Assembly: GCA_003566375.1 (NCBI GenBank)
Contig: PXDN01000107.1
Coordinates: 1 to 42,932 of the forward strand
Origin: Opitutia bacterium
GTDB taxonomy: Bacteria > Verrucomicrobiota > Verrucomicrobiia > Opitutales > T3Sed10-336
Length of the DNA: 42,932 bases
Reading direction: 5' to 3'
A program made the position numbers and the translations under genes. Positions 23,231 through 41,491 of the stretch are shown here, in pieces; position 1 is the first letter of the stretch, and each line of letters starts with the position of its first letter. The notes beneath the pieces were generated by a model. It searched no databases. It was not told the origin of the DNA and saw only the letters and a list, made by a program, of their open reading frames with translations.

Positions 23231-24726
23231 TTGGCATAGACCCTTTCCGTGATTTGCACCGCCAAATCAAGCGGACTGAATGGCGAGGCGGCAAAAAGCC
23301 CCACCGCCAGCGACAGTGCGGCCGTTACCAAAGCGGGGATGAGCAACAAGCGTGAGGTTTCGGCAAAACGAGCGACCTTTGCTGGAGCCCAGGGCTTGGC
23401 CGGTTTCCGAAACCACCCAATGTGTAGGATGGGCAGGAAATAGGCCGCGTTCAGCAGGGTGCTGGCCACCAAAACGCCGACCACCCATGTCTGCCCGGCG
23501 GACAGCGCCCCGGTTCCCAGATACCATTTACTTATAAAGCCCGCAGTGGGCGGCACCCCGATCATTCCAAAAGCCGCCACCGTGAAGGCGGCCATGGTCC
23601 ACGGCATTCTCCTCCCCACTCCGGCCAGCTCGTCAATATGGTGAATGCCCAGGGTTTCGGCAAAATTTCCCGCGCAAAAGAAGAGGGTGATTTTCATCAA
23701 ACCCTGGTGCACCAAATGGACCAAGCTCCCAATGGTCGCCACCGGACCGAAAATCGCCACGCCGAGCGCGATGTAGGAAACCTGGCTAATGGTGGAATAA
23801 GCCAGCCGGCGTTTCAAATCCCGCTGCGCGAGCGCGCGCGCCGAACCGTAAAGAATCGTTACCGCCGCCAAAACCGCCAACGGAGTCAACAACCCCGCCT
23901 CATTGGCAAAATGAACGCCGTAGACATCTTGCACCAAACGCAGGATCCCAAACGCCCCCGCCTTGACCACCGCCACGGCATGCAGCAAAGCACTGACCGG
24001 CGCGGGCGCGATCATGGCCACCGGCAACCAACCGTGCAGCGGCACCAGGGCGGCCTTCACCCCGAAAGCCAGCACGAACACGTAAAACAAAATGGTGAGC
24101 TGAACGCCGTTTTCCGCGGCCAATTCCCGGATCACGAGGATGTCACCGAAATCAAACGAGCCGGCCAGCGAGTGCAGCCAAACCACCCCCAGAAACAGGG
24201 CCGCCCCGCCGGGCATGGTGTAAAGCAAATAGGTGCGGCCGGCCGCCAGGGTTTTTTTGGTTCCCCGATGCACGACCAGCGGATAGGTCGTCAGGGTCAA
24301 AAACTCGTAGAAGATGAAAAATGTGATCAAGTTTCCCGCCAGGGCGATGCCGACGCTGGCGGTGACGCACAAACTGAAAAACCCAAAAAACCTTTTCCGG
24401 TTGGGCGACCCTTCCAAGTAGCCGATGGCATAAAGCGTGGTTAAAAACCAAAGCACGCTCGAAAGGGTGAGAAAAAAGAGCGAGAGCAGATCGACCCGCA
24501 GCAGAAAATCGAACCCCGGCAGAATTTGGTAGCGAACGTCGAACGAGTGATCGTGCCACACCACCCCGTAAAAGATGAAGGCGACCAGAGCCAGTTTTAT
24601 CAGGGCCGCGCCGATGTTGACCGCCTCGCGCAACCGCCGCGCCCGTTCGTCGATCAGGAATATAACCAGCCCGGCCACCAGCGAACTGGCGATGACCAAG
24701 ACCGGAAGCCAGCCACCGCCGCTCAC
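23227..24726 (-). CDS. mrpD: MrpD-family antiporter subunit (D2', paralogue of 28931-30433)
   Basis: FFIFYEFLT, KAALVPLHGWLPVAMIAPAPVSALLHAVAVVKAG, LKRRLAYSTISQ, HQGLMKITLFF, GFISKW. GTG start at 24726 (AGGAGG 7 nt upstream, GTGA overlap). Confidence 0.92.
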   Translation of the reverse strand: MSGGGWLPVLVIASSLVAGLVIFLIDERARRLREAVNIGAALIKLALVAFIFYGVVWHDHSFDVRYQILPGFDFLLRVDLLSLFFLTLSSVLWFLTTLYAIGYLEGSPNRKRFFGFFSLCVTASVGIALAGNLITFFIFYEFLTLTTYPLVVHRGTKKTLAAGRTYLLYTMPGGAALFLGVVWLHSLAGSFDFGDILVIRELAAENGVQLTILFYVFVLAFGVKAALVPLHGWLPVAMIAPAPVSALLHAVAVVKAGAFGILRLVQDVYGVHFANEAGLLTPLAVLAAVTILYGSARALAQRDLKRRLAYSTISQVSYIALGVAIFGPVATIGSLVHLVHQGLMKITLFFCAGNFAETLGIHHIDELAGVGRRMPWTMAAFTVAAFGMIGVPPTAGFISKWYLGTGALSAGQTWVVGVLVASTLLNAAYFLPILHIGWFRKPAKPWAPAKVARFAETSRLLLIPALVTAALSLAVGLFAASPFSPLDLAVQITERVYAK

Positions 24727-26177
24727 GGCGCGCCCTCCTCCGGATTCCATTCCATGCGGACTTCATCGGTTTGCCCGAGCAGTTGCATCGGTTCGCTGAC
24801 CCGCAGTCCCATCAGCACGGATGCGGCGGCCAAGGCCAGCACGGTGGCTTCCATCAATACCGGCGGCTTCCTTACCGTGGCGAAGCCGACTTTGGCTTGA
24901 AAGGCGTAAGATAAAATGAGAAACGCGTAGGCCGCGGTGAGCAAACTCCCGGCCAGCAGGACCGGAGCCCACCACCATTGGCCACTCTGCAAGGCCGCGC
25001 TCAGCAAAAGCCATTTCCCAATAAAGCCGCCGCTTGGAGGGAGACCAATCAAACTGACGCAGGCCAGGGTGATCGCCAGCGTTGTCAAAGGCAGGTGCCC
25101 GGCCAACCCGTGCATGTTTCGAAGTTTGTCACTGCCCAACGAATACACAATCACTCCCGCTCCCATCAGCAGCGCGGCCTTGGCGGTGGCGTGGGCCATG
25201 GCTTGGTAAATACCGCCGGTCCACGCGGCGGCGGCCCAGGAAGACCCGGCATACCCGGTGAGCAAAGGTATCAAAATCAAAAGGTACCCCATTTGGCTGA
25301 CGGTGGAATGGGCAATGATCAACTTCAACCTGCGTTCGCGCAGGGCATGGACGGCTCCCCACAAGATACCCGCCGCTCCCAATGCGCCGATGAAAGCGGC
25401 GGCGGCTTGGGTCGCCACGGTTGGCAACAAATCAAACCAAATGCGCACCACGGCAAAAAAAGGTCCCTTGACCACCAACCCCGAAAGCACTGCTCCCGCC
25501 GATCCAACCGCAATGGCGTGCACCGCCGGCAACCAGTAATGCAAAGGAAATACCGCCGCCTTCACCAACAAACCGAACAAAAGCAATACCGCCGCCCAAG
25601 AGGTCATGGCGGAAGGCTCCAGCAATTCCCGCAATTCACCCATGAATAACGTGCCGTAAACGGCATGCAACCAGGCAATCGCAAATAAAAAAAGCAGGCT
25701 GCCGGGCAGGCGGATGAGAAAATAGCGGCGGGCGAGCACCAAGGCCCGGCGGGAACCGGACAACACCACCATCCCCACCGCCGCCCCCCCCACCAATTCC
25801 ACGCCGATGAACATGGCCAGCAAATGCTCCGACAAAAAAATCGTGTTCAACCCGGTTAACAAAACCAGCCATGACGGCCAAAATCCTGGTGGAATCGGGC
25901 CATTGCCATGAGGCTGCCGGTGACCCTTGGCGTGCAGTGCGATCACCAGCCCCGTGCATGTTGTCGTTCCGATGAAAAGCGCGCTGAGACCATCCGCCTT
26001 CAGCAATCCCCACCACGCCATTTCCACCTCCCCGGATCGCAATATGCCTCTCGCCAGCGCGGCCGTGAAAACCGTGTTCGCAACTGTCGCGGCAATGGTT
26101 ATTTCGGCCGCCCGATGCCGCCACAAAACCACGGCCAGCAACCCCATCAACGGCCCCAAAATCAAAGCCGTGATCAT
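24723..26177 (-). CDS. mrpD: MrpD-family antiporter subunit (D1', paralogue of 30430-31962)
   Basis: FIGVELVG, KAAVFPLHYWLP.VH, LSGLVVKG, LKLIIAHSTVSQMGY, AHATAKA, GLPPSGGFIGKW. Confidence 0.9.
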   Translation of the reverse strand: MITALILGPLMGLLAVVLWRHRAAEITIAATVANTVFTAALARGILRSGEVEMAWWGLLKADGLSALFIGTTTCTGLVIALHAKGHRQPHGNGPIPPGFWPSWLVLLTGLNTIFLSEHLLAMFIGVELVGGAAVGMVVLSGSRRALVLARRYFLIRLPGSLLFLFAIAWLHAVYGTLFMGELRELLEPSAMTSWAAVLLLFGLLVKAAVFPLHYWLPAVHAIAVGSAGAVLSGLVVKGPFFAVVRIWFDLLPTVATQAAAAFIGALGAAGILWGAVHALRERRLKLIIAHSTVSQMGYLLILIPLLTGYAGSSWAAAAWTGGIYQAMAHATAKAALLMGAGVIVYSLGSDKLRNMHGLAGHLPLTTLAITLACVSLIGLPPSGGFIGKWLLLSAALQSGQWWWAPVLLAGSLLTAAYAFLILSYAFQAKVGFATVRKPPVLMEATVLALAAASVLMGLRVSEPMQLLGQTDEVRMEWNPEEGAP

Positions 26178-26608
26178 CAGGAGCCATCCTTCCCGCTTCC
26201 CGCATCGCCGTCACCCCGCGCCGCGCCAAACAATTTCCATCCCCAGACGGTCATTACAGCGATCCCCAACCATCCAACCGCGGCAATGGCAACCCCCTCA
26301 GCGTCCCAACGCCAGCCAAGCAACAGAACTATTGCCGCCGCCGCCATGAGATGCACTCCGGCCAAACGCCAACCCAACCGGTTGGCCAGCACCTCCAAAC
26401 CATACCCGGTGACGAACATAACGGAAGCCACCAACCCCACCAACTGTTGCCTCAGGGCGGGATCGGATTCTTGGGGATGGGTTCCCATCGCCCAAGTCCA
26501 TGCCACCGCCAGCACGCCCAGTGATAGCACAGAGGCCAGGCGAAACCCAAGCGGAAAGCTGAAACCGGAATTGGCGTCATTGGTTCGTTCGATCATGGCT
26601 GGTTGCAA
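26177..26608 (-). CDS. Hypothetical ~4-TM membrane protein, possibly a divergent MrpB (MnhB) domain
   Basis: Four hydrophobic segments; TGATG overlap with the downstream mrpD; faint similarity by eye to the MnhB half of 32254-33342. Start at 26608 (TTG) or 26596 (ATG). Confidence 0.6.
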   Translation of the reverse strand: MQPAMIERTNDANSGFSFPLGFRLASVLSLGVLAVAWTWAMGTHPQESDPALRQQLVGLVASVMFVTGYGLEVLANRLGWRLAGVHLMAAAAIVLLLGWRWDAEGVAIAAVGWLGIAVMTVWGWKLFGAARGDGDAGSGKDGS

Positions 26609-26687
26609 CCTGTTGTTGAAACAGCCTGCTTACAATATGCCGGCTTGGCAATGAAAGCCGAAGTTCCCAATGCTTTCCGGGAATGAC

Positions 26688-27158
26688 TCAGTGGCAACAG
26701 GTCTTGATCCTGGCCTCGAGTTCCCGCAAGTTGCCCTGCACGTCAAGCGATTGATCCAGAACATGAACGATCAAAGCATCATCGCCTACGGACAACGTGG
26801 CCGTGCCCGGCAGCAGGCTGATGCACCAGGCGAATAATGCTTTCTGGGCCTCGGAGGTGTCGGTCTTGAATTCAGTCACCGCCGGATTCAGTGGCATCGC
26901 CGGGCTGAATGCCCGCCGGGCAACATCCCAGCCACCGATTATGGCGTGGCGCAGGAACCACGGGACGAATGCCAGACAACCAGAGGGCCGTAACCGCCAG
27001 GACCCGCGTGGCAAGACGTAAAGACTGGTGATGGTGGCCAAAATCACTATCGCGGCCACCATTAAAGGTTCATCGAAATCAGCTGCGGAAACAATCGTCC
27101 ACAACAAAGTGAACGCCAATAACCGAAAAGAGATGGTTGCAAGAAATATTTTATTCAT
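26688..27158 (-). CDS. mrpE: Na+/H+ antiporter subunit E
   Basis: LLWTIVS, GGWDVARRAFSPAMPLNPAV, ISLLPGT, LIVHVLD. Start placed at MNKIFL with GAGG upstream. Confidence 0.9.
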   Translation of the reverse strand: MNKIFLATISFRLLAFTLLWTIVSAADFDEPLMVAAIVILATITSLYVLPRGSWRLRPSGCLAFVPWFLRHAIIGGWDVARRAFSPAMPLNPAVTEFKTDTSEAQKALFAWCISLLPGTATLSVGDDALIVHVLDQSLDVQGNLRELEARIKTCCH

Positions 27159-27197
27159 ACCCTCGATGCCAACAATTCTGCATGCTGCCCTCACCGG

Positions 27198-28934
27198 CTA
27201 ACCGCGCAAAGTGAAAATAAAAATCAACAAGGTGATGAAAAACGCGATGCCAACACTGTTCCAGTGCCCGAGATGGCGCTCGCCACTGTCGGCAAGAAGG
27301 GCGTTTTGTTCGATCCCCAGCAAACGGTGCAGGTTTTTTTCCACGTCAAACACCCTTCCGGCAAGCAAGGGCTGGATGCGGCCCCGCCACGTTCGCAGGA
27401 TTGCGCGGCCCAGCCATTCAAACAGCACCACCCCGTCGCCGGGCGGTATGACGGGTACCTTGCGGGCCGGCTTGGCGCGGCGGGCCCAATGCCAACCGAA
27501 CAACAACCCGGCGCCCAGCAGAATGGGCGCCGCCGCCGCAACAGCTTTTTCCAAATCCAAGGCGACTGGATAATCCGGCAACAGGCGCATGAACCAACCA
27601 CCGGTGCCGACCAGCAGGATACCCAGCAATGACAACCATGCCCCGGTCTGCCATGGCCTGCCGGGAACGGCTTGGGTCTCATGGGGCTTTTGGGCGCAAA
27701 GGTAAAGAAACCTTCCCAGCAAGAGCGTGGTGAAAAACGAGGACGCAACCAGCAGCGCGGGCAACCAGTCCGCCAGTCCGGAAGACGCCAGCGGCACCGC
27801 GTCCTTCAACGCGCCCTTGGTCAGGGCGCCTCCGGTCAACGGCAAACCGGCAATGCTCAACGCGGCCAGCGCCAACCCGGCCATAATCCATGGACGGGCG
27901 CGGATTCCGCCCGCCTGCGCCACCCCCACCCCAAGGAATAAAGCCCCCTTGGCGATACCATGATTCCAAGCATAGAGCGCGAGCGCCGGCAGCAGCCATT
28001 CAACCGGTGCGCCGGCGGCGTGGCAGAGCGCGAAAAACACCGTCAAAACCCCCATCTGGCTAATGCTGGAATAGGCGAGGTTGGTTTTGGCATCGGTTTG
28101 AAAGAGTCCGATGAGGACCGCGCCAAAAGTGGCGGCAAGCCCCAAAACCGCCAGAGGCAAAATCCACCCCGGCGCGCCCCCTTGCAGCACCGGGGAAAAG
28201 TGCAGCCAGCCCAACAAGCCGGCCTTTAACATGGACCCGCTGAGGATGGCGCTGGCGGGAGTCGGTGCCACCGGATGAGCCAGCGGCAACCAGAAATAGA
28301 GAGGCACGATTCCGACCTTCACACCAAAACCGGCTATGGCCAACGCATAAATGGGGGTGCGCCATTCGTCCTGCCAAACCCCCTCCGCCATCTCAGCCAA
28401 GTTGATCGAACCGGAAACCGAAACGGCGGCGTAAATGGCGGCGATCAGCAACAGCTCGCCAAAGATTGCCATGATTAAATAAATCTTCCCGGCGCGCAGC
28501 GCATTTGCGGAACGGCTGTGGATAACCAATCCATAGGCGGCAAAAGTCATCAGGGCAAACAGCGTGTAAAAGCCGGCCGCGTCCTCGGCCAATATCAGAC
28601 CGAGGTTTCCCGCCATCGATAACAGGAAAAAGCACCGGAAAGTGGCCACCCGGGGCTGCCCCGCGAGGTTGCCGGCGGCAAAAAAGCCTCCGGTTGTCCA
28701 GAGCACGGCCGCCAGTGCCAGCAAGATCCGACGGGGGGTATCGAGGCCAAACTCCACCACGAGCAATACGCCGTCAAAAGACTGCGGGCCCGGCGCGACC
28801 CAGCCAAAACCGAGCGCCAGCGCGGGCAAGCCCGCGCCCCCGCAAAGCAACGCGGTCACCCAGGGGCTCTCCGGCCGCCAGCGCGAAAAACCGGCCAGCA
28901 GCATGGGCAGCAATATGACCGAAACCCACATCAT
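27198..28934 (-). CDS. mrpD: MrpD/HyfB-like proton-conducting membrane subunit (D3)
   Basis: KVGIVPLYFWLPLAHPVAPTPASAILSGSMLKAG, LAYSSISQMG, NHGIAKGALFLG. Start at MMWVSV (ATGA overlap with upstream stop). Confidence 0.88.
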   Translation of the reverse strand: MMWVSVILLPMLLAGFSRWRPESPWVTALLCGGAGLPALALGFGWVAPGPQSFDGVLLVVEFGLDTPRRILLALAAVLWTTGGFFAAGNLAGQPRVATFRCFFLLSMAGNLGLILAEDAAGFYTLFALMTFAAYGLVIHSRSANALRAGKIYLIMAIFGELLLIAAIYAAVSVSGSINLAEMAEGVWQDEWRTPIYALAIAGFGVKVGIVPLYFWLPLAHPVAPTPASAILSGSMLKAGLLGWLHFSPVLQGGAPGWILPLAVLGLAATFGAVLIGLFQTDAKTNLAYSSISQMGVLTVFFALCHAAGAPVEWLLPALALYAWNHGIAKGALFLGVGVAQAGGIRARPWIMAGLALAALSIAGLPLTGGALTKGALKDAVPLASSGLADWLPALLVASSFFTTLLLGRFLYLCAQKPHETQAVPGRPWQTGAWLSLLGILLVGTGGWFMRLLPDYPVALDLEKAVAAAAPILLGAGLLFGWHWARRAKPARKVPVIPPGDGVVLFEWLGRAILRTWRGRIQPLLAGRVFDVEKNLHRLLGIEQNALLADSGERHLGHWNSVGIAFFITLLIFIFTLRG

Positions 28935-30433
28935 AACATGAAATAAACCCTTTCCACAATAAGCCGCGCCAGCGTCAGCGGACTCCACCAGCTGGCGGCA
29001 AACACCCCTACCAGGACCGACACCACGGCGGTGATCAGCGGCGGCCACAGCAGCATCCACGGTGCTTCAAGGCGCCGGTTGGGACGTTTGTCGGCCCAGC
29101 CGCCGACTGGTGGCGGGGCGAACCACGCGGCATGAATAATCGGCAAAAAATACACCGCGTTCAGCGCGCTGCTGCCCAGCAAAACCATCACCACCCACGG
29201 TTGTCCGCTGTCCAACGCGCCGATGCTCAAATACCATTTGCTGACAAAGCCGGCAATGGGAGGCAAACCGATCATCCCAAACGCGCCGATGGTGAAGGCC
29301 CCCATCGTCAGCGGCAGGCGGCGGCCAATTCCGTTAAGTTCACTGACCTTGCTCAGACCGGTGGTCTCGGCAATGTTGCCGGCGCAAAAGAACAGGGTGA
29401 TTTTCATGATCCCCTGGTGCACCAAATGGACGATGGCGCCCACGGAACTGAGCATCCCCGGCACCGCCGCGCCCAGCGCGATGTAGGAAAGTTGGCTGAC
29501 GGTGGAAAACGCCAGGCGTTTCTTCAAATCATCCTGCGCAATCGCGCGGATCGATCCATAGATAATCGTAAAAGCGGCGATAAAAGCCAGGGGGTTGAGC
29601 ACCGACAAAGCGGTTGCCAGTTCGATCCCGTAAACATCGTAGATCAGGCGGATGATCCCAAAAGCCCCCGCCTTGACCACCGCCACCGCGTGCAGCAGGG
29701 CGCTCACCGGCGCCGGCGCGACCATCGCCACCGGCAACCAACCGTGCAGGGGAAAGATCGCCGCCTTGGCCGCGAAACCGGCCAACAAGATGAAAAACAG
29801 GATTTTCAGCTCCAACGGGTGCGTTTCAACAAATCCGGCCAAATGAATGCCTTGGGCAAATTCCACCTCCCCGGCCAACACCGACAGGCCCACTATCCCG
29901 ACAAACAACACGGTCCCCCCGCCGATGGTGTAAAACAGGTAGTTGCGTCCGGCTTCCACCGCTTTTTGGGTGCCGCGGTGCACCACCAGCGGGTAGGTGG
30001 TCAGCGTCAAAAACTCATAGAAAACAAAAAAGGTTACCAGATTGCCCGACAAAGCGATGCCGGTGCTCGCCGTCACGCACATGCTGAAAAAGCCGAAAAA
30101 GCGGCGGCGGTTGGGGGACCCTTCGAGATAACCGATGGCATAGATGGTGGTGATCAACCAAAGAATGCTCGACAGGCCGGCGAACAACAGCGCGAGCGCA
30201 TCAATCCGCAGCATGAATTGCAAATCCACCGTAACCTGAAACGTAAACGCGTATTCCTGGCCACTGCGGTAACCGAAGTAAACCAGGATCAGCAGAAGCA
30301 ACTTGAGGACGGCCCCGAACAAATTCAGCGCGGTGCGGGTGCGAATCGAGGATTCGGACAGGAAGAAAATCAGCACCCCGGGAATGAGCGAGCTGCAGAC
30401 AATTAACAAAGGCAGCAAGACGTTCCAGTTCAT
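28931..30433 (-). CDS. mrpD: MrpD-family antiporter subunit (D2)
   Basis: FFVFYEFLT, KAAIFPLHGWLPVAMVAPAPVSALLHAVAVVKAG, DDLKKRLAFSTVSQ, HQGIMKITLFF, GFVSKW. Confidence 0.93.
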   Translation of the reverse strand: MNWNVLLPLLIVCSSLIPGVLIFFLSESSIRTRTALNLFGAVLKLLLLILVYFGYRSGQEYAFTFQVTVDLQFMLRIDALALLFAGLSSILWLITTIYAIGYLEGSPNRRRFFGFFSMCVTASTGIALSGNLVTFFVFYEFLTLTTYPLVVHRGTQKAVEAGRNYLFYTIGGGTVLFVGIVGLSVLAGEVEFAQGIHLAGFVETHPLELKILFFILLAGFAAKAAIFPLHGWLPVAMVAPAPVSALLHAVAVVKAGAFGIIRLIYDVYGIELATALSVLNPLAFIAAFTIIYGSIRAIAQDDLKKRLAFSTVSQLSYIALGAAVPGMLSSVGAIVHLVHQGIMKITLFFCAGNIAETTGLSKVSELNGIGRRLPLTMGAFTIGAFGMIGLPPIAGFVSKWYLSIGALDSGQPWVVMVLLGSSALNAVYFLPIIHAAWFAPPPVGGWADKRPNRRLEAPWMLLWPPLITAVVSVLVGVFAASWWSPLTLARLIVERVYFML

Positions 30434-31962
30434 GGAAGTTCCTCCCCTCCGCCGCTAATCATTTCCACGGCATTTCCAAAACCCGAGGTGCCCTCCAACA
30501 AACCGGTCACCCACTCCGCGGGCAGCGCCACCACGATCGCCGCAATGGCAAGCACCAGCGCGCAGGCCTGCAATCCGGGCGGAACCGGTCGTAACGGGGT
30601 CTCCTTGAGAGCGGGGGCAAAGGCAAGGCGCAGGATCATGAACACATAGCCGGCCGTCAACAAACTGCCGACCAGGATAAAAGGCACCCACCACCATTGG
30701 CCGCTGGCAAAAACCGCCTTCAGCAACATCCACTTGGCCAGGAAGCCGCCGCTCGGCGGCAGCCCGATCAAGCTGACCCCGGCAAGCCCGATCGCAAAGG
30801 TTGTCATCGGCAACCGTCCCACCATGTTCAACAGCGAATCCTTGTGGTCGTTCCCAACCGCAATCACCAGCACGCCGACGCCAAGGAAGAAGGCCGCCTT
30901 GGCAAAGCCGTGCGCCAGCACCTGGTAGATGGCGCCGGTCCAGGCGAACACGGTCCAGTCCGGCGTTTGTGCCATCCCCAGCGGCACCGTGATCAGGGGA
31001 AACAACAGAAAGAGGTAACCGATCTGGGCGACGGAAGAATGCGCGATCACCAACTTCAAACGCTGCTGGCGCAGCGCCTGAAACGAACCCCAAATCACCG
31101 CGACCGCCCCGAGCGCGCCAAGAACCTGCCCGGCCGCAAAGGTAAGCGAGACTCCAAACATTTCGACCCAGAGCCGCAGAATGATGAAAAACGTGCCTTT
31201 CAAAACCAGCGCCGAGAGGATGGCGCTGACCGGCGGCTCGGCCGATGAATGGGCCGGCGGCAGCCAAAAATGCAGCGGAAAGACCGCCGTCTTCACCATC
31301 AGCCCGGCCAGGATCAGGGCAAAGGCAATTTTCGCTGTCGGTCCCGTTTCCAAAGCCGCCGCCGCCAGCCCGATATCAAGCGCGCCCGTCGCGCCAAAAA
31401 TCAACGCCACTCCCATCAGGTAAGCCAGGGAGCCGACAATGGCGGCGAGCAGGTAGCGCAAACCGGCGACCATCGCCGGGTTTTTGCCGGACAACACCGC
31501 CAGGGCCACGGCGGCAATCCCAACCACCTCGATCACCACATAGAGGTTGAACAAATCCTCGGCCAGGTACATCCCATTCAAACCCGCCCACAACAACAGC
31601 CAGAGCGGCCAGAACATCGAAGCGCGGGCGGGATTTTCCACCACTTTGTCAAAATAGACCCGCGCGTAAAAACTCACCACGCCGCCGACCAGCCCGGTCA
31701 TCAAAATAAACACCGCTGAAAGGCCGTCGAGCTTCAGCCCAATCCCCAACGGCGGCGGCCAACCGCCAAGCGCATGCGACAACGAGCCTCCGCCGGCAAT
31801 CACCGCTCCGGCCAACACCGCGAGGGAGGTCGTCAGCCAGGCAAAAACCAACCCCGCCGGCCCCCGTGCCTTCGGCGGCAACAGAAACGTCACCACCCCC
31901 CCCGCAATCGGCAGGATCACCAACCAAGCGGGCAGGTTTTTCAGTAGCAAGAGCGCGGTCAC
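30430..31962 (-). CDS. mrpD: MrpD-family antiporter subunit (D1)
   Basis: HALGGWPPPLGI.LKLDGLS, DLFNLYVVIEV, KTAVFPLHFWLPPAH, AHGFAKA, GLPPSGGFLAKW. GTG start at 31962 (GGAGG 7 nt upstream, GTGA overlap with the mrpC stop). Confidence 0.92.
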   Translation of the reverse strand: MTALLLLKNLPAWLVILPIAGGVVTFLLPPKARGPAGLVFAWLTTSLAVLAGAVIAGGGSLSHALGGWPPPLGIGLKLDGLSAVFILMTGLVGGVVSFYARVYFDKVVENPARASMFWPLWLLLWAGLNGMYLAEDLFNLYVVIEVVGIAAVALAVLSGKNPAMVAGLRYLLAAIVGSLAYLMGVALIFGATGALDIGLAAAALETGPTAKIAFALILAGLMVKTAVFPLHFWLPPAHSSAEPPVSAILSALVLKGTFFIILRLWVEMFGVSLTFAAGQVLGALGAVAVIWGSFQALRQQRLKLVIAHSSVAQIGYLFLLFPLITVPLGMAQTPDWTVFAWTGAIYQVLAHGFAKAAFFLGVGVLVIAVGNDHKDSLLNMVGRLPMTTFAIGLAGVSLIGLPPSGGFLAKWMLLKAVFASGQWWWVPFILVGSLLTAGYVFMILRLAFAPALKETPLRPVPPGLQACALVLAIAAIVVALPAEWVTGLLEGTSGFGNAVEMISGGGEELP

Positions 31963-32267
31963 GCGTCGTCCTCCCCGCCAAAGCGGTCTTGCCCGCTTTG
32001 CAAACGTATCCGCCGCGCCAGGGCAAGGGCGAAGGCCGCCGCGCTGACGGCCACCACGATGCCGGTGATCACCATGGCATGCGGAACCGGGTCGGCGAAC
32101 TCCAGCGCGTCCCGCTCGGCTATGCTCACCAGGAGCAGGAAAACCCCGCCGCCCAGGATTTTGGTGGCGATGATTTTCTTGAAAAAGCGCTCGCACAGAA
32201 AAACCGCCGCCAGCCCAATGGCAAACAACCCCACCGCGACGATGGCATAGACTTCATGAGTTTCCAT
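31959..32267 (-). CDS. mrpC: Na+/H+ antiporter subunit C
   Basis: LFAIGL, KKIIA, ADPVPHAMVITGIVVAVS. Start METHEVY with AGGAGG upstream. Confidence 0.93.
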   Translation of the reverse strand: METHEVYAIVAVGLFAIGLAAVFLCERFFKKIIATKILGGGVFLLLVSIAERDALEFADPVPHAMVITGIVVAVSAAAFALALARRIRLQSGQDRFGGEDDA

Positions 32268-33342
32268 CCCGCCCGCCTCCTTTCCATCCAAGCTCCGGCG
32301 CCTGCGCCATACCGGTGAAATAGACAAAAAAACAGGTCAGGGTGAGCCCGATCGACAAGGTTGCGAAGGCTTCCACCCACAATATCAGCCAGCCCGCGTG
32401 GGCGGCCGGGTATTCAAGAAACGCCCGGTCCAGCACCATGAAGCCGATCCCGGCGAGGAGGAAAAAAGCAAACCCAATGGCCAAACCAAGTTTCCAGACC
32501 CACCGCGGCATCGCCTCAACAAAGTGCCACCCGGCCAGCTGCAACAAAATCCCCGCCGCGCCCAGCACAACCCCGGCCTGAAAGGCCCCGCCCGGATACG
32601 CCTTGCCCAGCCACAGCAAATATCCCGCGACCAGCACCATGACCGGCGCAAGCAAGCGCGCCAGCCGATCGATCAACAAATCCCGCTCGGTGGAGACCTC
32701 GCCGCGCCGAAAACCCTCAAAGCCACCGGCACAGAAGATCGCCAACATCGCGATCAGCAAAACCCCCACCTCCAGCCAAGTATCATAGCTGCGGAAGTTC
32801 AACAAAACCGCCGTCACCGGATGCTCCACCCCGGAACGTTCCAAGGCTTCGGCGGAGGCCGCGGTCAAGCCGCCGCCGACCGGCATTCCCCACACCGCCG
32901 TCAGCAGAAAACCGGCGAAAACACCCGTGCCCAATAAAACCATCGCCGTCTGCAGGGCCGGCTTTGAAAACACAACCCCCTCGGGCTTAGGCACGCCCCA
33001 GAATCGCTTCCCGCGCGGCTCAGGGCCGGAAGGCCCGCCGACCGGGGCTTGCGGAGAGTCTCCCCTTTCGGTTGATCCATCCATCACGGAACCGCCGCCG
33101 GAGGGTTCGAAATCCCGCAGCGAGTGGATCAGCAAAACGCCGAGCAGCCCCGCGCCAATGGCGGCCTCGGCCAAGGCCACGTCCGGTGCGGCCAACCGCG
33201 CCCATGCCAGCGCAAGGGTCAGACCGAAGGCGATAAACGTAACCGCGCTTTGATAAAGACCGCCCACCAGCACCGCGCGCAGGGCCAGCAGTAAAATCAG
33301 CACCGCCAACACACAGTCGAGGAGGAGATTGAGCACGCTCAT
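32254..33342 (-). CDS. mrpB: DUF4040 + MnhB fusion (Mrp subunit B, carrying the MrpA C-terminal part)
   Basis: APDVALAEAAIGAG (DUF4040), HPVTAVLLNFRSYDTWLEV, PGGAFQAG (MnhB), with a ~50-aa Gly/Pro-rich linker. Confidence 0.9.
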   Translation of the reverse strand: MSVLNLLLDCVLAVLILLLALRAVLVGGLYQSAVTFIAFGLTLALAWARLAAPDVALAEAAIGAGLLGVLLIHSLRDFEPSGGGSVMDGSTERGDSPQAPVGGPSGPEPRGKRFWGVPKPEGVVFSKPALQTAMVLLGTGVFAGFLLTAVWGMPVGGGLTAASAEALERSGVEHPVTAVLLNFRSYDTWLEVGVLLIAMLAIFCAGGFEGFRRGEVSTERDLLIDRLARLLAPVMVLVAGYLLWLGKAYPGGAFQAGVVLGAAGILLQLAGWHFVEAMPRWVWKLGLAIGFAFFLLAGIGFMVLDRAFLEYPAAHAGWLILWVEAFATLSIGLTLTCFFVYFTGMAQAPELGWKGGGRDGNS

Positions 33343-37689: not shown

Positions 37690-37752
37690 CATCGGGTAAG
37701 ACCCAATGCCACGATACACACGGAGATCGTCGGGTAAAACCCGATGCGCCAC
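37690..37752 (-). repeat. Two tandem REP-like palindromes
   Basis: Minus strand GTGG-CG-CATCGGGT-TTT-ACCCGACG (37752-37728) and GTGG-CATTGGGT-CTT-ACCCGATG (37712-37690). Confidence 0.6.
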
Positions 37753-37761
37753 AAAGACCGC

Positions 37762-39201
37762 TCAGTCGCGCAAACTAAAACGGAAGAAGCGCCGGGGGTC
37801 GGACACGGTCCCGGGGTGGACAAACCGGAATTCGCCCGCCGACCCGGTTTCCACCTCGCCCAGAGGAGTCCAGGTGACAAGGTCCAATGACGTGAAGGCT
37901 TCGTAAATCCGGTCCGGCAAGCCGACCGCCCGCATTTCAAACTCCCCCTCCCCGTTCATTCCCATCTCCAGGATGGTGATGGCGGGATCGTCCTCCGCCC
38001 GCACATAGACCGTGACCCGCCCGTCGGCTTCGCCACCGAAGGGATCGGCCAGCAGGTAGGTGAACACGTCCGTGCCAGTGAAGCCGACTGGCGGAGCATA
38101 AGTCACCATCCCGTCCTCCAGCGACAGAACCGCCCCGGCCGCGGATGCGGTGTCGGGGAGTGAGAGATGCAGGGGATCCCCGTCCGGATCAAAATCGTTT
38201 AGCAGCAGCGTTTCCACCGCCACCGGCAACGGCGTGTCACGGGCCGCGCCCAGGAAATCGGGCCCGGCCACCGGCGGGTGATTGAACGGGATCACCTCAA
38301 TGGCTCGGATAGCGGCGGGGCCTTCCCCCGCGTCGCCGTCGGACAGCACAAAAACCACCGGTCGCACGCCTCCGGTCGGGAAACGCAGGGGATTGGCGAA
38401 GGTGACCGACCGGACCAAAGCCTCGACCGCCGCCAAAGTCGCGTTGGTGTTCAACTCGACCAATAACGGTTCCCCGTCCGTTCCCCCCGCGAAGATGCCG
38501 ATGGACGCCCCGTCAAACCAGACCTCGTCCCCGTCCTCCAGCGTGATGCCGGCCGGGCCGTTTGCCGCAATCCCCAAAACGTCTCCCGGAGCGGCCCCGC
38601 CGTTGATGGATACGCGAAGATACCCGCCCGCAAGCACGTCCGTGTCCGGATCCGCCACGGCGGCCGTCGGATCGATCACCACCACGCCCGCCCCCTCAAG
38701 GTAAACCAGGGGCTCCGGGTTCAACGTGACCGAGGGGGCCGCGGGCACGTGAACGGAAAACTCCCGCGCCACCGCGTCCCGCACCGGAATAAACGGAGGC
38801 TCTCCGGCAAAAATGGAAAACTCCCGCGTCACCGCGTCCGCCACGAAAAGAGGCAATTCCGGCGAACCGGCGAAAAGGGAAAATTCGCGGGTCACCGCGT
38901 CTGCCGCAACAGGGGGCACTTGGGGAGAACCGGCAAAGAGGGAAAACTCCCGCGCCACCGTGTCCGTCAATGCCAGCCGCGAACCAACCGGTCCGGCGAA
39001 GACCGAAAATTCACGTGTTGCGGCATCGTTCGCGGACACGGGTGAGGTATCCCCGAAAAAAAACGTGAATTCCCGAGCCAGCGCATCGGTCGCGTCTGCA
39101 GCCGCCGCGAATCCAACCGCCCGCGCCACCGCCACCCAAACGACAACCCGGGCAAAGCCCGGGAGGATGTGTGATCCGCGATTGACAACTGGGATTCTCA
39201 T
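37762..39201 (-). CDS. Exported surface protein: six REFS repeats, adhesin-type Ig-like domain, Big_9/cadherin-like domain, putative C-terminal sorting domain
   Basis: Atypical signal-like N-terminus; six DAx[AT]REF[ST]xFAG motifs (aa 39-153); YLEG...IDP...DPD...NAT...EALVRSVTFAN...LSDGD domain; NHPPVAGPD..LLLNDFDPDGDPL..YAPPVGFTGTDVFTY; C-terminal YEAFTSLDLVTW...RRFFR. Confidence 0.85.
   Translation of the reverse strand: MRIPVVNRGSHILPGFARVVVWVAVARAVGFAAAADATDALAREFTFFFGDTSPVSANDAATREFSVFAGPVGSRLALTDTVAREFSLFAGSPQVPPVAADAVTREFSLFAGSPELPLFVADAVTREFSIFAGEPPFIPVRDAVAREFSVHVPAAPSVTLNPEPLVYLEGAGVVVIDPTAAVADPDTDVLAGGYLRVSINGGAAPGDVLGIAANGPAGITLEDGDEVWFDGASIGIFAGGTDGEPLLVELNTNATLAAVEALVRSVTFANPLRFPTGGVRPVVFVLSDGDAGEGPAAIRAIEVIPFNHPPVAGPDFLGAARDTPLPVAVETLLLNDFDPDGDPLHLSLPDTASAAGAVLSLEDGMVTYAPPVGFTGTDVFTYLLADPFGGEADGRVTVYVRAEDDPAITILEMGMNGEGEFEMRAVGLPDRIYEAFTSLDLVTWTPLGEVETGSAGEFRFVHPGTVSDPRRFFRFSLRD
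38743..39087 (-). repeat. Coding tandem repeat, six units of 60-63 nt (20-21 aa)
   Basis: DALAREFTFFFG, DAATREFSVFAG, DTVAREFSLFAG, DAVTREFSLFAG, DAVTREFSIFAG, DAVAREFSVHVP, separated by 8-9 aa Pro-containing linkers. Confidence 0.95.
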
Positions 39202-39240
39202 TCGGGTGGCACCTTGCCGTGAAACAGGTTGTGCCTCTTC

Positions 39241-40578
39241 TCAATCCGGAAAACCGGCCAGCACCTGCACGGTGGAAAATCCGTCCGCGACGTCGATTTC
39301 CGCCGTCCAAGTGGAATCCTCGAAGGTTCCCCCCGCGTATTCGGCCAGGACCGTTTCATCGATCCCGGTCCGGCGGATCACGCGCACCGTCAACACACTG
39401 TCCAAGGGCACGTGCGAAGCTTCAATGAGCAAAGAGGCCGGTCCGGCGGAGGGCAGGGAAACATCCGTGTTGGGAAACGCAAGTTCGGCGCGCGGGTCCT
39501 CGGGAACGGTTTTCCCCCCAAGGCTGACCGAACGAATCATGGGCGTTTCCGGTTGGCGAAACAGCCGGGGTGTCTCCTCCGCCACGCCGAGGGAGTAGGC
39601 CGGGTTGCCAAGATCCACCAATTCATTCGTGAAAGTCTCCACGCGGATGCGTCCGACGGCTCCGTTGCCGCCGTTGCGGCCCGCAATACCAGTGCCGCCG
39701 GCGCCGCCAAGCGCCAAAAGCGTGCCGTTGCCCGAAATGTGGTCGGCCACGAGCCGGATTCCACCGCCGCTGCCGCCGCCCGCATAGGTTTGGGTCGTCC
39801 CGCCGCCGCTTGGGCTGCCGCCTCCATTGGCCCGCACTTGGCCGTTGAGGAGGATTGACTGGGAGGTGGCAATCAGAATGGCGCCGCCGCCCGCTCCTCC
39901 CCCGCGGCCGCGGTCGCCCATCGCCGAACCGGCTCCGCCTGATCCCCCGATGAGCGGGAAGACCCCCGGATTGCCGTAGGCGCTCCCCGGACTGCCGGCC
40001 CCGGCCCCGCCCGAGCTTCCCGCGGCACCCGGCGCGCCATGGCCAGCCCCGCTGCCGGCACCGCTGTCGCCTCCGGGGGAAGCCGAAGTGTAGGCGGGGC
40101 CTCCCGGCCCCATGCCGGCCGCGCCGGGGGTTTGCGCGTCGGACCCGCGCCCTCCCCGGAAACCGCCCGGCCCGGGCTCCGAGAAGCCGCGCAGGCCGTT
40201 GAAATCATGTCCCGGCGCGCCGTTCAAAGAGACGGTTCCATCAATGACCACGTCTCCCTGGGAAAGCCAGATCACCGGCGCGCGGGAAGGGTGGTTGAGA
40301 AAGGTGACGGTCACCCCGGACGGGATGTTGATGGAGGAAAATTTGAAGACCACCGCCCATTGCTCCGGATCATAGACCCCCGACCCGCTGCCCGGCGTGT
40401 CCCACGATCCGGTGGCGGCGAGGGAGAGGTCCACGACGATGTTTCCCGCGGGCTCGAAAGCCCCGTCGGATCCGTCGGAGGGAATGGTCAGCGCACCGGC
40501 GGGAGCGGCGGAAAGCAACAGGGGAAGCAGCAGCGGGAAGCAGAGACGAAGAGAGAATGATTTTATCATACTATTCAT
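39241..40578 (-). CDS. Secreted glycine-rich protein of unknown function with a C-terminal beta-rich domain
   Basis: Signal peptide (LRLCFPLLLPLLLSAAPAGA), PSDGSDGAF, FKFSSINIPSGVTVTF, alternating Gly-rich tracts and short strands (PGPGGFRGG, LIGGSGGAG, GGGAGGGAILI, GGGSGGGIRL, GAVGRIRVE). Start at 40578 or 40569. Confidence 0.85.
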   Translation of the reverse strand: MNSMIKSFSLRLCFPLLLPLLLSAAPAGALTIPSDGSDGAFEPAGNIVVDLSLAATGSWDTPGSGSGVYDPEQWAVVFKFSSINIPSGVTVTFLNHPSRAPVIWLSQGDVVIDGTVSLNGAPGHDFNGLRGFSEPGPGGFRGGRGSDAQTPGAAGMGPGGPAYTSASPGGDSGAGSGAGHGAPGAAGSSGGAGAGSPGSAYGNPGVFPLIGGSGGAGSAMGDRGRGGGAGGGAILIATSQSILLNGQVRANGGGSPSGGGTTQTYAGGGSGGGIRLVADHISGNGTLLALGGAGGTGIAGRNGGNGAVGRIRVETFTNELVDLGNPAYSLGVAEETPRLFRQPETPMIRSVSLGGKTVPEDPRAELAFPNTDVSLPSAGPASLLIEASHVPLDSVLTVRVIRRTGIDETVLAEYAGGTFEDSTWTAEIDVADGFSTVQVLAGFPD

Positions 40579-40699
40579 GGCGGACCCTTGTTTCAGATTA
40601 GATAAGCCGAAAGAGTTGCAAGGCAGGTTTGCGAGTGTATAACCCATTCAACATATCCAAACAGACAAGTCAAGCCGCGTAAAACCAGCGTGGGTTGCT

Positions 40700-41491
40700 C
40701 TAAAGAGCCGATGTGAACTCCGTTACCATGCGCGTGAACTCCCCCCGGTTTTCAATGTGTGGATTGTGTCGCCAGTTTTCCACGACGCGGATGTCGGCTT
40801 GGGGAAAGTGCCGCCGGATCAGGGGATGATGGCTTTCAGTCACGAAATCGGATTTGCCCCCAATTAAAAACAACACCGGTCCCTCGAAGGTTTCTCCTTC
40901 CTCCACCGGGGCCGCGCCGGTGGCCTCCAGATCGCGGGTCAACACCGGGAGATTGATCTGCCAGGAGAAGCCGCCCTCCTCCCGGCGATCGAGATTGGTG
41001 AGCAGGAATTGCCGCATGCCCCACGAGGGAATTTCCTTTTCCATCCAGGCCTCGGCCTCGGCGCGGGATTTCAGCCGGTCGAGGGGAAGCGCGTTCATGG
41101 CGCGGAATTCGTCATCGTGGCGCGGTTGGCGGCGGCCGGGGGCAATATCCACCACCACCAGCGCCCGCACCTGGTCCGGTTGGCGGCAGGCCAGGCGCAT
41201 GGCGAGCTTTCCGCCCATGCTGTGCCCCAGGAGAAGGGTTTGGCCGATTCCCGTTCGGTCCGACCATGCCCGCAAATCCGCCTCCATGGCGGCGTAGGTG
41301 TGCGGAGACGCGTGGGGAGACCGGCCGTGGTTGCGCAAATCCGGCGCCAGCACGTGAAAGGAGTCCGTCAACCCGCGGGCGGCGCCCGCCCAGTTGCGGG
41401 AGGAGCCCAGCAGCCCGTGCAAAACCACCAGCGGGGGACGGTCTTCGCCCCCGAAGTCGCGGTGAACCAATTCAACCGGTTCGATTTCCAT
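40700..41491 (-). CDS. Alpha/beta-hydrolase, YbfF/ABHD11-like esterase
   Basis: LHGLLGSSRNW, DLRNHGRSPH, nucleophile GHSMGG, VVDIAP, FLLTNL, GGKSDFV, HNPH. Start placed at MEIEPVE. Confidence 0.9.
   Translation of the reverse strand: MEIEPVELVHRDFGGEDRPPLVVLHGLLGSSRNWAGAARGLTDSFHVLAPDLRNHGRSPHASPHTYAAMEADLRAWSDRTGIGQTLLLGHSMGGKLAMRLACRQPDQVRALVVVDIAPGRRQPRHDDEFRAMNALPLDRLKSRAEAEAWMEKEIPSWGMRQFLLTNLDRREEGGFSWQINLPVLTRDLEATGAAPVEEGETFEGPVLFLIGGKSDFVTESHHPLIRRHFPQADIRVVENWRHNPHIENRGEFTRMVTEFTSAL

What the first reader, a model, noticed from the sequence alone, without database searches (positions are those of the whole stretch)
37762..40578. Best novel-system candidate: multivalent REFS-repeat scaffold paired with a secreted glycine-rich partner
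Seen: two co-oriented exported-protein genes 39 nt apart. Gene 1 has a signal peptide, a Gly-rich body and a ~95-aa beta-rich C-terminal domain, but no anchor or sorting tail. Gene 2 has six short conserved motifs on Pro-containing linkers, two Ig/cadherin-like stalk domains and a putative sorting domain, but no catalytic or obvious ligand-binding domain. Each protein appears to lack what the other has. Established analogies: cohesin-dockerin scaffolding in cellulosomes and donor-strand complementation in chaperone-usher and type V pili. Inference: each REFS motif is a docking beta-strand that captures one copy of the Gly-rich protein, so up to six heads are displayed on an anchored stalk as a two-component surface adhesin or display system. 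I know of no description of this pairing but could not search.
Basis: partly seen in the sequence, partly recalled or inferred. Interest (0 to 1): 0.85.

Follow-up and report, generated by a model that had tools for sequence, protein, structure and literature searches.

The report
Beta-helix protein docks on repeat-motif scaffold
Two neighbouring secreted-protein genes form a widespread, undescribed pair in which short repeated peptide motifs on a cadherin-like stalk protein are predicted to dock copies of a conserved glycine-rich beta-helix protein.

Summary
Both genes lie on the minus strand, 39 nt apart. Gene 1 (39241-40578) has a signal peptide, a Gly-rich right-handed beta-helix and a roughly 100-aa beta-sandwich. 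Gene 2 (37762-39201) has a signal peptide, six REFS motifs, tandem cadherin/Ig-like domains and a C-terminal module.

1. Co-occurrence: 71 of 80 gene-1 loci from many phyla carry a motif array on the same strand, at a median of 118 nt. In five large genomes, 6 of 6 arrays sit beside 6 of 6 full-length gene-1 copies. Three natural fusions exist.
2. Binding: the predicted complex scores 0.95 against a best control of 0.01. The motif strand lies against gene 1's C-terminal sandwich and conserved Gly-rich loops.
3. The repeat region does not fold confidently alone (pLDDT below 50).

Gene 1's family is large (1671 representative clusters at E<=1e-30). It has no Pfam, NCBIfam or PDB relative, and four paper searches found no description.

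Not shown: the number of heads per scaffold, anchoring, or biological role. My best reading is a new non-covalent scaffold-and-docking surface module. It works like cohesin-dockerin or donor-strand systems but is not homologous to them.

The parts
39241..40578 (-). Gene 1: secreted Gly-rich beta-helix protein, 445 aa (P0001). It is the constant 'head' or docking-receptor component.
   Evidence: ORF and translation. It is single copy in the genome. The family has 1671 representative clusters at E<=1e-30. There is no Pfam, NCBIfam or PHROGs hit.
40492..40578 (-). Gene 1 signal-peptide region (aa 1-29).
   Evidence: The hydrophobic stretch ends in AGA just before the conserved mature N-terminus. 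pLDDT is below 50 for aa 1-28. This is read from the sequence; no predictor was run.
39559..40491 (-). Gene 1 right-handed beta-helix with Gly-rich turns (aa 30-340). It includes the invariant GPGGFRGG and YGN..PL segments.
   Evidence: AF2 model. VIA-align best hits are TPS-domain, ice-binding and bactofilin beta-helices, Z 7.6-9.8. Invariant columns are listed.
39244..39552 (-). Gene 1 C-terminal beta-sandwich (aa 343-445). This is the predicted motif-binding domain.
   Evidence: Strands at 347-442. Ig/CBM21-like matches at Z about 7-8. Interface residues are 344-379, 385-390 and 430-445.
39202..39240 (-). 39-nt intergenic spacer.
   Evidence: Sequence.
37762..39201 (-). Gene 2: motif-array scaffold, 479 aa (P0002).
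   Evidence: ORF and translation. Twelve orthologues share the architecture and carry 4-8 motifs.
39097..39201 (-). Gene 2 signal-peptide region (aa 1 to about 35).
   Evidence: A basic N-terminus is followed by a hydrophobic helix at aa 16-26 and then AAAA. This is read from the sequence only.
38737..39096 (-). Array of six docking motifs (aa 36-155), period 20-21 aa. Cores lie at nt 39052-39087, 38992-39027, 38929-38964, 38866-38901, 38803-38838 and 38743-38778.
   Evidence: Motif positions. 63-nt tandem repeat. pLDDT below 50 when folded alone. Motif 5 (aa 119-133) is docked in the predicted complex.
38302..38736 (-). Gene 2 middle beta domain (aa 156-300). No family model matches it.
   Evidence: Confident AF2 fold. 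It is shared with the paralogue on contig C140.
38002..38301 (-). Gene 2 bacterial cadherin-like / Big_9 domain (aa 301-400).
   Evidence: Pfam PF17963 at 5.5e-16, PF17892 and PF17803, all above their cut-offs. Foldseek matches cadherin ectodomains.
37765..37989 (-). Gene 2 C-terminal beta-sandwich module ending RRFFRF (aa 405-479). It is a candidate sorting or anchoring module.
   Evidence: Confident fold. The same tail type closes 22 of 8280 ORFs of >=150 aa in the genome, against 3 in control windows. It also closes Verrucomicrobial partners in other loci.

Best explanation
Genes 1 and 2 encode a conserved, secreted two-protein module.

Gene 2 is a scaffold. After its signal peptide it carries six copies of a roughly 12-residue linear motif (consensus [EDQ]-[AV]-[VI]-S-R-E-[VF]-S-[VLI]-F-[VN]-G; here D-A-V-T-R-E-F-S-L-F-A-G). 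The copies are spaced 20-21 residues apart on Pro-rich linkers. Cadherin/Ig-like domains and a lineage-typical C-terminal module follow.

Gene 1 is the constant partner. Each motif is proposed to dock one gene-1 molecule. The motif lies as a beta-strand antiparallel to the last strand (aa 433-441) of gene 1's C-terminal sandwich and alongside segment 372-375. The motif's flanks touch the invariant Gly-rich loops of the beta-helix (W74, F140, G157, Y201-G202).

The result would be a non-covalent, multivalent assembly: several beta-helix 'heads' on one stalk that is probably held at the cell surface.

Shown by computation: the gene linkage, the fusions, the motif and one predicted interface.
Inferred: occupancy of all six motifs, anchoring through the C-terminal module, and the biological role (adhesion or surface display).
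For: Gene linkage:
- 52 of 80 loci holding a gene-1 relative have an adjacent co-oriented ORF with three or more motifs.
- Of the remaining 28 loci, 15 have one or two motifs in the adjacent ORF.
- A motif-array HMM hits 71 of 80 loci. All 71 hits are on gene 1's strand (49 downstream, 20 upstream, 2 overlapping). The median gap is 118 nt, and it is <=600 nt in 67 of 71.
- Of the nine loci without a hit, only L034 has ample flank on both sides.
- BLASTP clustering places the partner in 65 of 80 loci.
- The loci span Verrucomicrobiota, Planctomycetota, Hydrogenedentota, Armatimonadota, Acidobacteriota, Nitrospira, Desulfobacterales, Lentisphaerae and Eisenbacteria.

Reciprocal test in five large genomes: 6 of 6 array-bearing ORFs lie 50-408 nt from a gene-1 relative, and 6 of 6 full-length gene-1 loci have an array.

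Own genome: there is one gene-1 copy and one array.

Fusions: L033/P0122, P0123 and P0124 carry the gene-1 module followed 18-30 residues later by one or two motifs.

Predicted complex:
- Score 0.95, best of 3 controls 0.01.
- The mark was reached by 58 of 80 solved complexes and 2 of 110 mismatched pairs. These counts hold only roughly, because my own alignments were used.
- Runs agree in at least 85% of contacts. Partner pLDDT is at least 56.
- No solved relative exists that could be remembered.
- The contact span on gene 2 (aa 119-133) coincides with the conserved span of the motif (-4 to +7, from 250 instances).

Conservation: beta-helix residues in the interface are enriched for conservation, 9 of 15 at >=80% against 88 of 298 elsewhere (p=0.017).

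The array alone has pLDDT below 50.

Partner bodies are adhesin-type domains only: Ig, cadherin, FN3, LamG, CARDB, PKD.
Against: - No experiment exists. Binding rests on one structure predictor's confidence.
- Only motif 5 was docked; motif 4, in the same peptide, stayed free. Simultaneous occupancy is therefore untested, and 8-residue linkers may be too short for independent 45-kDa heads.
- Conservation enrichment in the C-terminal domain is weak: 8 of 45 against 4 of 58, p=0.08.
- Motif-variant versus gene-1 covariation showed no enrichment at the interface: 5 of 25 and 4 of 25 top columns against 58 of 362 overall.
- Gene 1 is 40-67% identical across phyla. That is more like an enzyme or a machine part than a fast-evolving adhesin head.
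- One locus (L034) has flanks but no array. Some loci (L066, L067) hold tandem gene-1 copies with weak or no arrays.
- DSSP sees short strands at each motif in the low-confidence monomer model, so self-association of the array is not excluded.
Confidence: 0.6

Rival explanations
1. Templated fibre or oligomer. The motif array is not a passive display rack. It is a 'string' whose fixed 19-21-residue period lines up beta-helix subunits so that they pack against each other into an ordered rod or sheet. The assembled beta-helix oligomer is the functional structure, and the partner's body is optional.
For: - Spacing is tightly constrained although the linker sequence is free. Of 249 successive motif distances, 73 are 20, 32 are 19 and 24 are 21 residues.
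- Some partners are little more than a signal peptide plus the array (L063, 131-aa frame; L014, 231 aa).
- Gene 1 is highly conserved, as expected for a self-packing subunit.
- The fold class (TPS-like, bactofilin-like, ice-binding-like beta-helix) includes polymer-forming proteins.
Against:
- The fused forms carry only one or two motifs.
- Some long partners place motifs in pairs 118 residues apart rather than in one continuous array.
Confidence: 0.15
2. Enzyme or maturation factor and its substrate. Gene 1 recognises the motif only transiently, in order to cleave, modify, fold or export the neighbouring protein. It is not a stable subunit.
For: - Conservation is enzyme-like, with invariant polar residues (H96, R141, Y201, R310, R312, E314, D361, D372).
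- The motif contacts the most conserved loops (S98, F140, Y201-N203).
- The substrate-like partner varies hugely while the motif stays constant.
Against: - No catalytic family or fold was detected.
- Natural fusions keep the motif permanently tethered next to the module.
- Tandem arrays of up to eight sites are unusual for a processing signal.
- The motif's Ser is replaced by Gly or Ala in some lineages, which argues against a Ser-based covalent chemistry.
Confidence: 0.15
3. The repeats are a self-contained structural element, such as a beta-meander or solenoid, or the first strands of the Ig-like domains. In that case the genes are neighbours for another reason, such as co-regulation or a shared export route.
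For: - DSSP strands appear at every motif in the monomer model.
- The sixth motif abuts the confidently folded domain.
- In long partners, motifs flank each roughly 100-aa domain.
Against: - pLDDT is 28-45 across the array.
- The linkers are Pro-rich.
- The predicted heteromeric interface is very confident, with controls at 0.01.
- The array always sits at the end of the partner that is encoded next to gene 1.
- Fusions exist with a single motif.
Confidence: 0.07

Closest known systems
Cohesin-dockerin scaffolding of cellulosomes (recalled knowledge)
   Same: A secreted scaffold with tandem docking sites recruits several copies of a partner non-covalently. The scaffold carries a separate module for cell-surface attachment. 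The genes are often neighbours.
   Different: No homology was found: neither gene hits cohesin or dockerin models. The docking site here is a roughly 12-residue linear motif, not a 150-aa domain. The recruited protein is one constant beta-helix protein, not a set of enzymes. Some Planctomycete partners end in dockerin-like Asp-rich tails, but that is at the other end of the protein.
Donor-strand complementation/exchange in chaperone-usher and type V pili, and TapA-TasA strand complementation (recalled; PMC10151520 seen in the listing only)
   Same: A short peptide strand from one protein is predicted to insert at the edge of an Ig-like sandwich of another protein, antiparallel to its C-terminal strand.
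   Different: The neighbourhoods hold no PapD-like chaperone, usher or pilin family. The donor strands are arrayed in tandem on one protein rather than one per subunit. It was not shown that gene 1's sandwich lacks a strand.
Two-partner-secretion TPS domains (HpmA 4w8q, HxuA, EtpA, FHA, HMW1)
   Same: These are the best structural matches of gene 1's beta-helix: Z 9.8 (rmsd 3.0 A, 139 aligned) down to 8.2. Both are N-terminal, secreted, right-handed beta-helices.
   Different: Z is only slightly above the 7-8 background quoted by the tool. There is no sequence match to the TPS family. None of the 15 largest neighbour clusters was checked as or found to be a TpsB/Omp85 gene; only six ORFs from five clusters were scanned. 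Gene 1 has its own C-terminal sandwich and a motif partner.
Giant RTX or ice-binding adhesins with an Ig-like stalk and a beta-helix tip (e.g. the Marinomonas primoryensis adhesin; recalled)
   Same: The overall design is an Ig/cadherin-like extender carrying a beta-helix at its far end. Ice-binding beta-helices and an Ig domain of that adhesin appear among the fold matches (Z 6.9-8.4).
   Different: In those adhesins everything is one polypeptide exported by a type I system. Here the stalk and the beta-helix are separate gene products joined by docking motifs, and several heads may sit on one stalk.

Membership tests
Bacterial cadherin-like / Big_9 domain proteins (gene 2 body) | Match to PF17963 / PF17892 / PF17803 above the gathering score | tested here: met
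   59.7, 47.1 and 47.3 bits against cut-offs of 23.6, 26.5 and 25.1, at aa 301-400. Foldseek matches cadherin ectodomains at E about 1e-8.
Cohesin-dockerin system | Cohesin domains on the scaffold and a Ca-binding dockerin on the recruited protein | tested here: not met
   The Pfam scan of both proteins at E<=1 lists neither.
Chaperone-usher / donor-strand pili | PapD-like chaperone and usher genes in the locus; a pilin with an incomplete Ig fold | tested here: not met
   The window neighbours are an alpha/beta hydrolase, an ABC exporter, SBP_bac_5 and an M14-like protein. The conserved neighbour clusters scanned across the 80 loci are kinases or two-component regulators; two further scanned clusters had no family hit. 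Whether the sandwich is incomplete was not testable.
Two-partner secretion exoprotein (TpsA) | TPS (haemagglutination activity) domain by sequence, and a TpsB Omp85 transporter gene nearby | tested here: not met
   No Pfam hit for gene 1. No TpsB/Omp85 gene was seen among the window neighbours or the neighbour clusters scanned.
Two-partner secretion exoprotein (TpsA) | TPS-type beta-helix fold | tested here: inconclusive
   Best Z 9.8 to HpmA, with 139 residues aligned at 3.0 A. This is little above background and may reflect a generic beta-helix.
Ice-binding protein (DUF3494) family | Sequence match to the family; beta-helix with an alongside helix | tested here: inconclusive
   No Pfam hit. 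Fold Z is 7.6-8.4.
Known C-terminal sorting signals (PEP-CTERM, T9SS CTD, LPXTG) | Match to the NCBIfam or Pfam models for these tails | tested here: not met
   No such hit for either protein at E<=1. Gene 2's tail is a different, unnamed RFYR-type module.
Chlamydial polymorphic membrane proteins (GGA[ILV]/FxxN repeats; recalled) | Chlam_PMP repeat model and an autotransporter barrel | tested here: not met
   Gene 1 contains GGGAILIA-type turns, but it has no Pfam hit and no barrel.
New pair proposed here (gene-1 family plus SRE[VF]S motif array) | A gene-1-family protein encoded next to, or fused with, a tandem array of the motif | tested here: met
   In the window the genes are adjacent with a 39-nt gap. 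The pattern holds in 71 of 80 loci and in 6 of 6 pairs in five genomes.

The most novel reading that the evidence does not exclude
A previously undescribed extracellular assembly system found across many phyla. A string of docking strands with a fixed period of about 20 residues templates an ordered oligomer or fibre of a conserved Gly-rich beta-helix subunit by strand insertion. This would be a new class of bacterial surface appendage, used by PVC bacteria and others and attached to interchangeable adhesin bodies.
Probability: 0.25. Interest if true: 0.85.

Novelty: new variant of a known kind. Interest (0 to 1): 0.72.

Why it matters
Gene 1's family is large: 3923 representative clusters at E<=1e-10. 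It spans at least nine phyla or lineages. It has no Pfam or NCBIfam model and no solved relative.

Pairing it with a defined linear motif turns two groups of 'hypothetical proteins' into a testable protein-protein recognition system. It also helps explain how PVC-group and other diderm bacteria, whose surface-protein biology is poorly known, build modular surface structures.

A roughly 12-residue tag that is bound with high specificity by a secreted 45-kDa module could also serve as a protein-engineering tool.

The RFYR-type C-terminal module, seen on about 20 proteins of this genome, may mark an uncharacterised sorting route.

Tried and rejected
- Foldseek of the gene-1 model against the PDB gave no match at E<=0.001. 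A profile search of PDB sequences gave only a VgrG chain at E 0.24.
- The ESM Atlas returned only unnamed 'hypothetical protein' clusters. PHROGs gave nothing for either protein.
- The covariation test (mutual information between the partner's majority motif variant and gene-1 columns, 53 pairs) showed no interface enrichment. It is dominated by phylogeny and entropy, so it is inconclusive.
- The promoter and terminator scan was uninformative: 0 promoter-like sites, and 4 terminator-like sites against 6.0 expected.
- No RNA holder was listed for the stretch. Only DNA contig runs labelled soda-lake or sediment metagenome were listed.
- Four paper searches (motif strings; donor strand/Verrucomicrobia/beta-helix; surface protein/short linear motif; scaffoldin/docking) returned nothing on this pair. 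I saw only the listings (titles and abstract starts) and read no paper. Supplements are closed and were not consulted.
- A Thr/Ser-Gln ester or isopeptide lock between the motif and gene 1's Q438 was considered. I set it aside because the motif's Ser is Gly or Ala in some lineages.
- A Ser/Thr kinase-TPR gene (19 of 80 loci) and an FG-GAP histidine kinase plus LuxR regulator (6-8 loci) are not in this window. They were not pursued as components.
- Modelling two or more heads on one array, and folding a fused form, could not be done because the caps for complex prediction (1) and structure prediction (2) were used.


Full report
**What is there.** The finding's coordinates are correct, and both genes are on the minus strand.
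- Gene 1 (39241-40578, 445 aa) starts with a hydrophobic signal-like segment. The strongly conserved mature N-terminus IPSDGSDGAF follows, then a Gly-rich body and a C-terminal beta-rich domain.
- Gene 2 (37762-39201, 479 aa) begins 39 nt after gene 1's stop.
- Gene 2 carries six copies of D-A-V-[TA]-R-E-F-[ST]-x-F, with the Arg at aa 43, 63, 84, 105, 126 and 146. At the DNA level this is a 63-nt tandem repeat.
- Pfam finds Big_9/Cadherin_5/Cadherin_4 at aa 301-400 of gene 2 and nothing in gene 1. NCBIfam and PHROGs add nothing.
- The neighbours are unrelated: an alpha/beta hydrolase, an ABC exporter, a family-5 solute-binding protein, an M14-like protein and an Mrp antiporter cluster. The unit is therefore a stand-alone gene pair.

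**Gene 1's family.**
- The word-indexed search found 1729 relatives at E<=0.001 among 8000 candidates. Nearly all are 400-460 aa and unnamed. Where named, they come from Opitutales, Hydrogenedentes, Phycisphaerae, Eisenbacteria and Verrucomicrobiales.
- An exhaustive profile search of 1.84 billion cluster representatives gave 7969 hits at E<=0.001, 3923 at <=1e-10 and 1671 at <=1e-30.
- Sixteen diverse members are 44-67% identical to gene 1. They share invariant segments such as GPGGFRGG, YGN..PLIGGSGG and GRIRVE.
- The AF2 model (mean pLDDT 75.1, pTM 0.77) shows a beta-helix followed by a sandwich at aa 347-442.
- Foldseek finds no PDB match at E<=0.001.
- The Foldseek-independent search gives TPS domains (HpmA Z 9.8, HxuA 9.7, EtpA 9.4, FHA 8.5), ice-binding proteins (up to 8.4) and bactofilin (7.9) for the helix, and Ig/CBM21-like folds (Z about 7-8) for the sandwich. 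That identifies a right-handed beta-helix but no specific family.
- No PDB sequence relative exists, and the ESM Atlas shows only unnamed clusters.

**Co-occurrence.** I fetched 80 loci encoding gene-1 relatives from species-representative genomes.
- A simple motif expression (R-E-hydrophobic-small-hydrophobic, three or more times per ORF) hits 52 of 80 loci. Each hit is an ORF on gene 1's strand.
- Of the other 28 loci, 15 have one or two good motifs in the adjacent ORF.
- Among 6730 other ORFs in these loci, four had three or more motifs. Three of them were true neighbours that my crude window mis-binned. One (L036) is a second array gene 3.7 kb away.
- An HMM built from eight arrays hits 71 of 80 loci. 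All hits are co-oriented: 49 downstream, 20 upstream, 2 overlapping. The median distance to the gene-1 envelope is 118 nt, and it is <=600 nt in 67 of 71.
- The nine misses break down as follows. L008, L009 and L028 end at gene 1, and L039 and L050 have under 800 nt downstream. L030 and L064 start at gene 1. L033 is a fusion. Only L034 has ample flanks on both sides.
- When the partner is downstream, the array is at its N-terminus. When the partner is upstream, the array is at its extreme C-terminus. The array is therefore always encoded next to gene 1.
- BLASTP clustering independently joins the partners of 65 of 80 loci.

**Reciprocal test and own genome.**
- In five large genomes, the array HMM found six array-bearing ORFs and the gene-1 profile found six full-length loci. 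One of these loci, in G005, is in two pieces. Each array lies 50-408 nt from a gene-1 locus.
- The only other gene-1 profile hits there are weak partial matches to the Gly-rich part of two giant ORFs.
- The window's own genome has one gene-1 copy and one array. Of 32293 ORFs of >=60 aa, one has six motifs, one has three scattered matches and eight have two.
- Five orthologue pairs of genes 1 and 2 report identical longest-contig lengths. This suggests that the same adjacency holds in close relatives.

**Fusions.** Three proteins carry both parts in one frame.
- L033/P0122 has the gene-1 module, about 30 residues of linker, one motif, and then Ig-like/LRR domains. It runs off the contig.
- P0123 (1827 aa) has a signal peptide, the gene-1 module and one motif, followed by TSP3, FG-GAP and Big_5 domains.
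- P0124 (1426 aa) has the gene-1 module in the middle, followed by two motifs separated by FN3-like domains.

**The motif.** From 250 instances the consensus is [EDQ][AV][VI]-S-R-E-[VF]-S-[VLI]-F-[VN]-G with Pro-rich flanks. Spacing is 20 (73 cases), 19 (32), 21 (24) or 118 (24) residues. Orthologues of gene 2 have four to eight copies.

**Binding.**
- Co-folding mature gene 1 (aa 30-445, 16-row alignment) with gene 2 aa 93-136 (two motifs, 13-row alignment) gave a score of 0.95 in three runs.
- The best of three controls scored 0.01. The tool states that this mark was reached by 58 of 80 solved complexes and 2 of 110 mismatched pairs. Those counts hold only roughly because my own alignments were used.
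- The runs agree in at least 85% of contacts, and partner pLDDT is at least 56.
- Motif 5 (aa 119-133) docks. The pair list runs 440-123, 439-125, 438-127, 437-128, 436-129, 434-131 and 433-132, which means antiparallel pairing with gene 1's last strand. There are further contacts to 372-375 and 361-366, and to beta-helix residues 74, 98, 140, 156-158 and 201-210.
- The contact span equals the conserved span of the motif.
- Interface residues in the beta-helix part are enriched for conservation (9 of 15 against 88 of 298, p=0.017). The enrichment in the sandwich is weak (8 of 45 against 4 of 58, p=0.08).
- Covariation gave no signal.
- Because no solved relative exists, the pass is unlikely to come from memory. 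It remains a model's confidence, not a measurement.

**Gene 2's other parts.**
- The AF2 model (mean pLDDT 74.5) leaves aa 1-146 below 50 and folds aa 150-479 confidently into three beta domains.
- Foldseek matches tandem cadherin/Ig ectodomains at E about 1e-8, with low TM because of domain hinges.
- The C-terminal module has no family model. However, an RFYR-type tail closes 22 of 8280 ORFs of >=150 aa in this genome against 3 in control windows. It also closes Verrucomicrobial partners elsewhere, whereas Planctomycete partners end in Asp-rich dockerin-like tails. That pattern fits a lineage-specific sorting or anchoring module, but this is inference.
- Partner bodies in other loci are Ig, cadherin, FN3, LamG, CARDB, PKD and LVIVD domains, with no enzymes in the 10 of 53 partner ORFs I scanned.
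- A paralogue of gene 2's body lies at the end of contig C140. No motifs are visible in the part that is present.

**Interpretation.** Gene 2 is a multivalent scaffold whose linear motifs dock gene-1 molecules by beta-strand augmentation. I add three points.
- The receptor is gene 1's C-terminal sandwich together with the invariant Gly-rich loops.
- The pair is ancient and widespread.
- The constant component is gene 1, and the variable one is the scaffold's body.

The tightly fixed 19-21-residue spacing, the existence of body-less arrays and the strong conservation of gene 1 leave room for a bolder reading: the array templates an ordered oligomer or fibre. An enzyme-substrate relation is the main mechanistic rival.

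**Comparison with known systems.** The system works like cohesin-dockerin scaffolding and like donor-strand complementation (both recalled from established knowledge). It fails the membership tests for both, and for TPS exoproteins.

**Literature.** Four full-text searches found no description.

**Verdict.** The finding is real and non-random. It is conserved and computationally coherent, and it is not described in the sources I could search. The biological role and the stoichiometry remain to be measured.

Noticed in passing
window 37765-37989 (-); own genome contigs C64, C84, C105, C109, C114, C140, C149, C175, C219, C274, C280, C289, C331, C350, C391, C418 and others: A C-terminal beta-sandwich module of about 75 aa, ending in an RFYR[VLF]-type tail, closes 22 of 8280 ORFs of >=150 aa in this genome (3 in control windows). 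Most of these are large secreted-looking proteins. No Pfam or NCBIfam model matched it in gene 2. It may mark an uncharacterised sorting or anchoring route in Verrucomicrobiota.
   Followed up: partly
L011:1545-4163(-), L014:7986-10508(+) and others: A Ser/Thr protein kinase with TPR repeats lies within 6 kb of the gene pair in 19 of 80 loci. It is absent from this window. This may be chance in kinase-rich Planctomycetes, or it may be a regulator.
   Followed up: no
L019:1541-4683(+), L017, L052, L070, L073: An FG-GAP-repeat histidine kinase and a LuxR-type response regulator sit next to the pair in 6-8 Verrucomicrobial loci. They are a possible dedicated regulator.
   Followed up: no
L003 (own genome C140:7535-8998, -): A paralogue of gene 2's body (33% identity over aa 86-452), cut by the contig end. 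It has the same middle domain, cadherin-like domain and RFYRL tail, but no REFS motif in the visible part.
   Followed up: partly
G005:C2:1865600-1867971 (-): The second gene-1 copy in this genome is matched in two pieces in different frames, about 1.1 kb apart. It still lies next to a second motif-array gene. It may be an insertion, a frameshift or a variant architecture.
   Followed up: no
L066, L067, L041, L058: Some loci hold tandem duplicates of gene 1 (two to several copies) with weak or single motifs nearby.
   Followed up: no
window 21509-33342 (-): A run of minus-strand ORFs includes Mrp/NADH-quinone-oxidoreductase-type antiporter subunits (Proton_antipo_M, MnhB/MbhD). It appears unrelated to the finding.
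   Followed up: no
window 37700-40700: The only public runs listed as holding this stretch are DNA contig sets labelled soda lake metagenome (word shares 0.53 and 0.34), plus small shares in sediment metagenomes. The best holder may be the window's own source sample.
   Followed up: no
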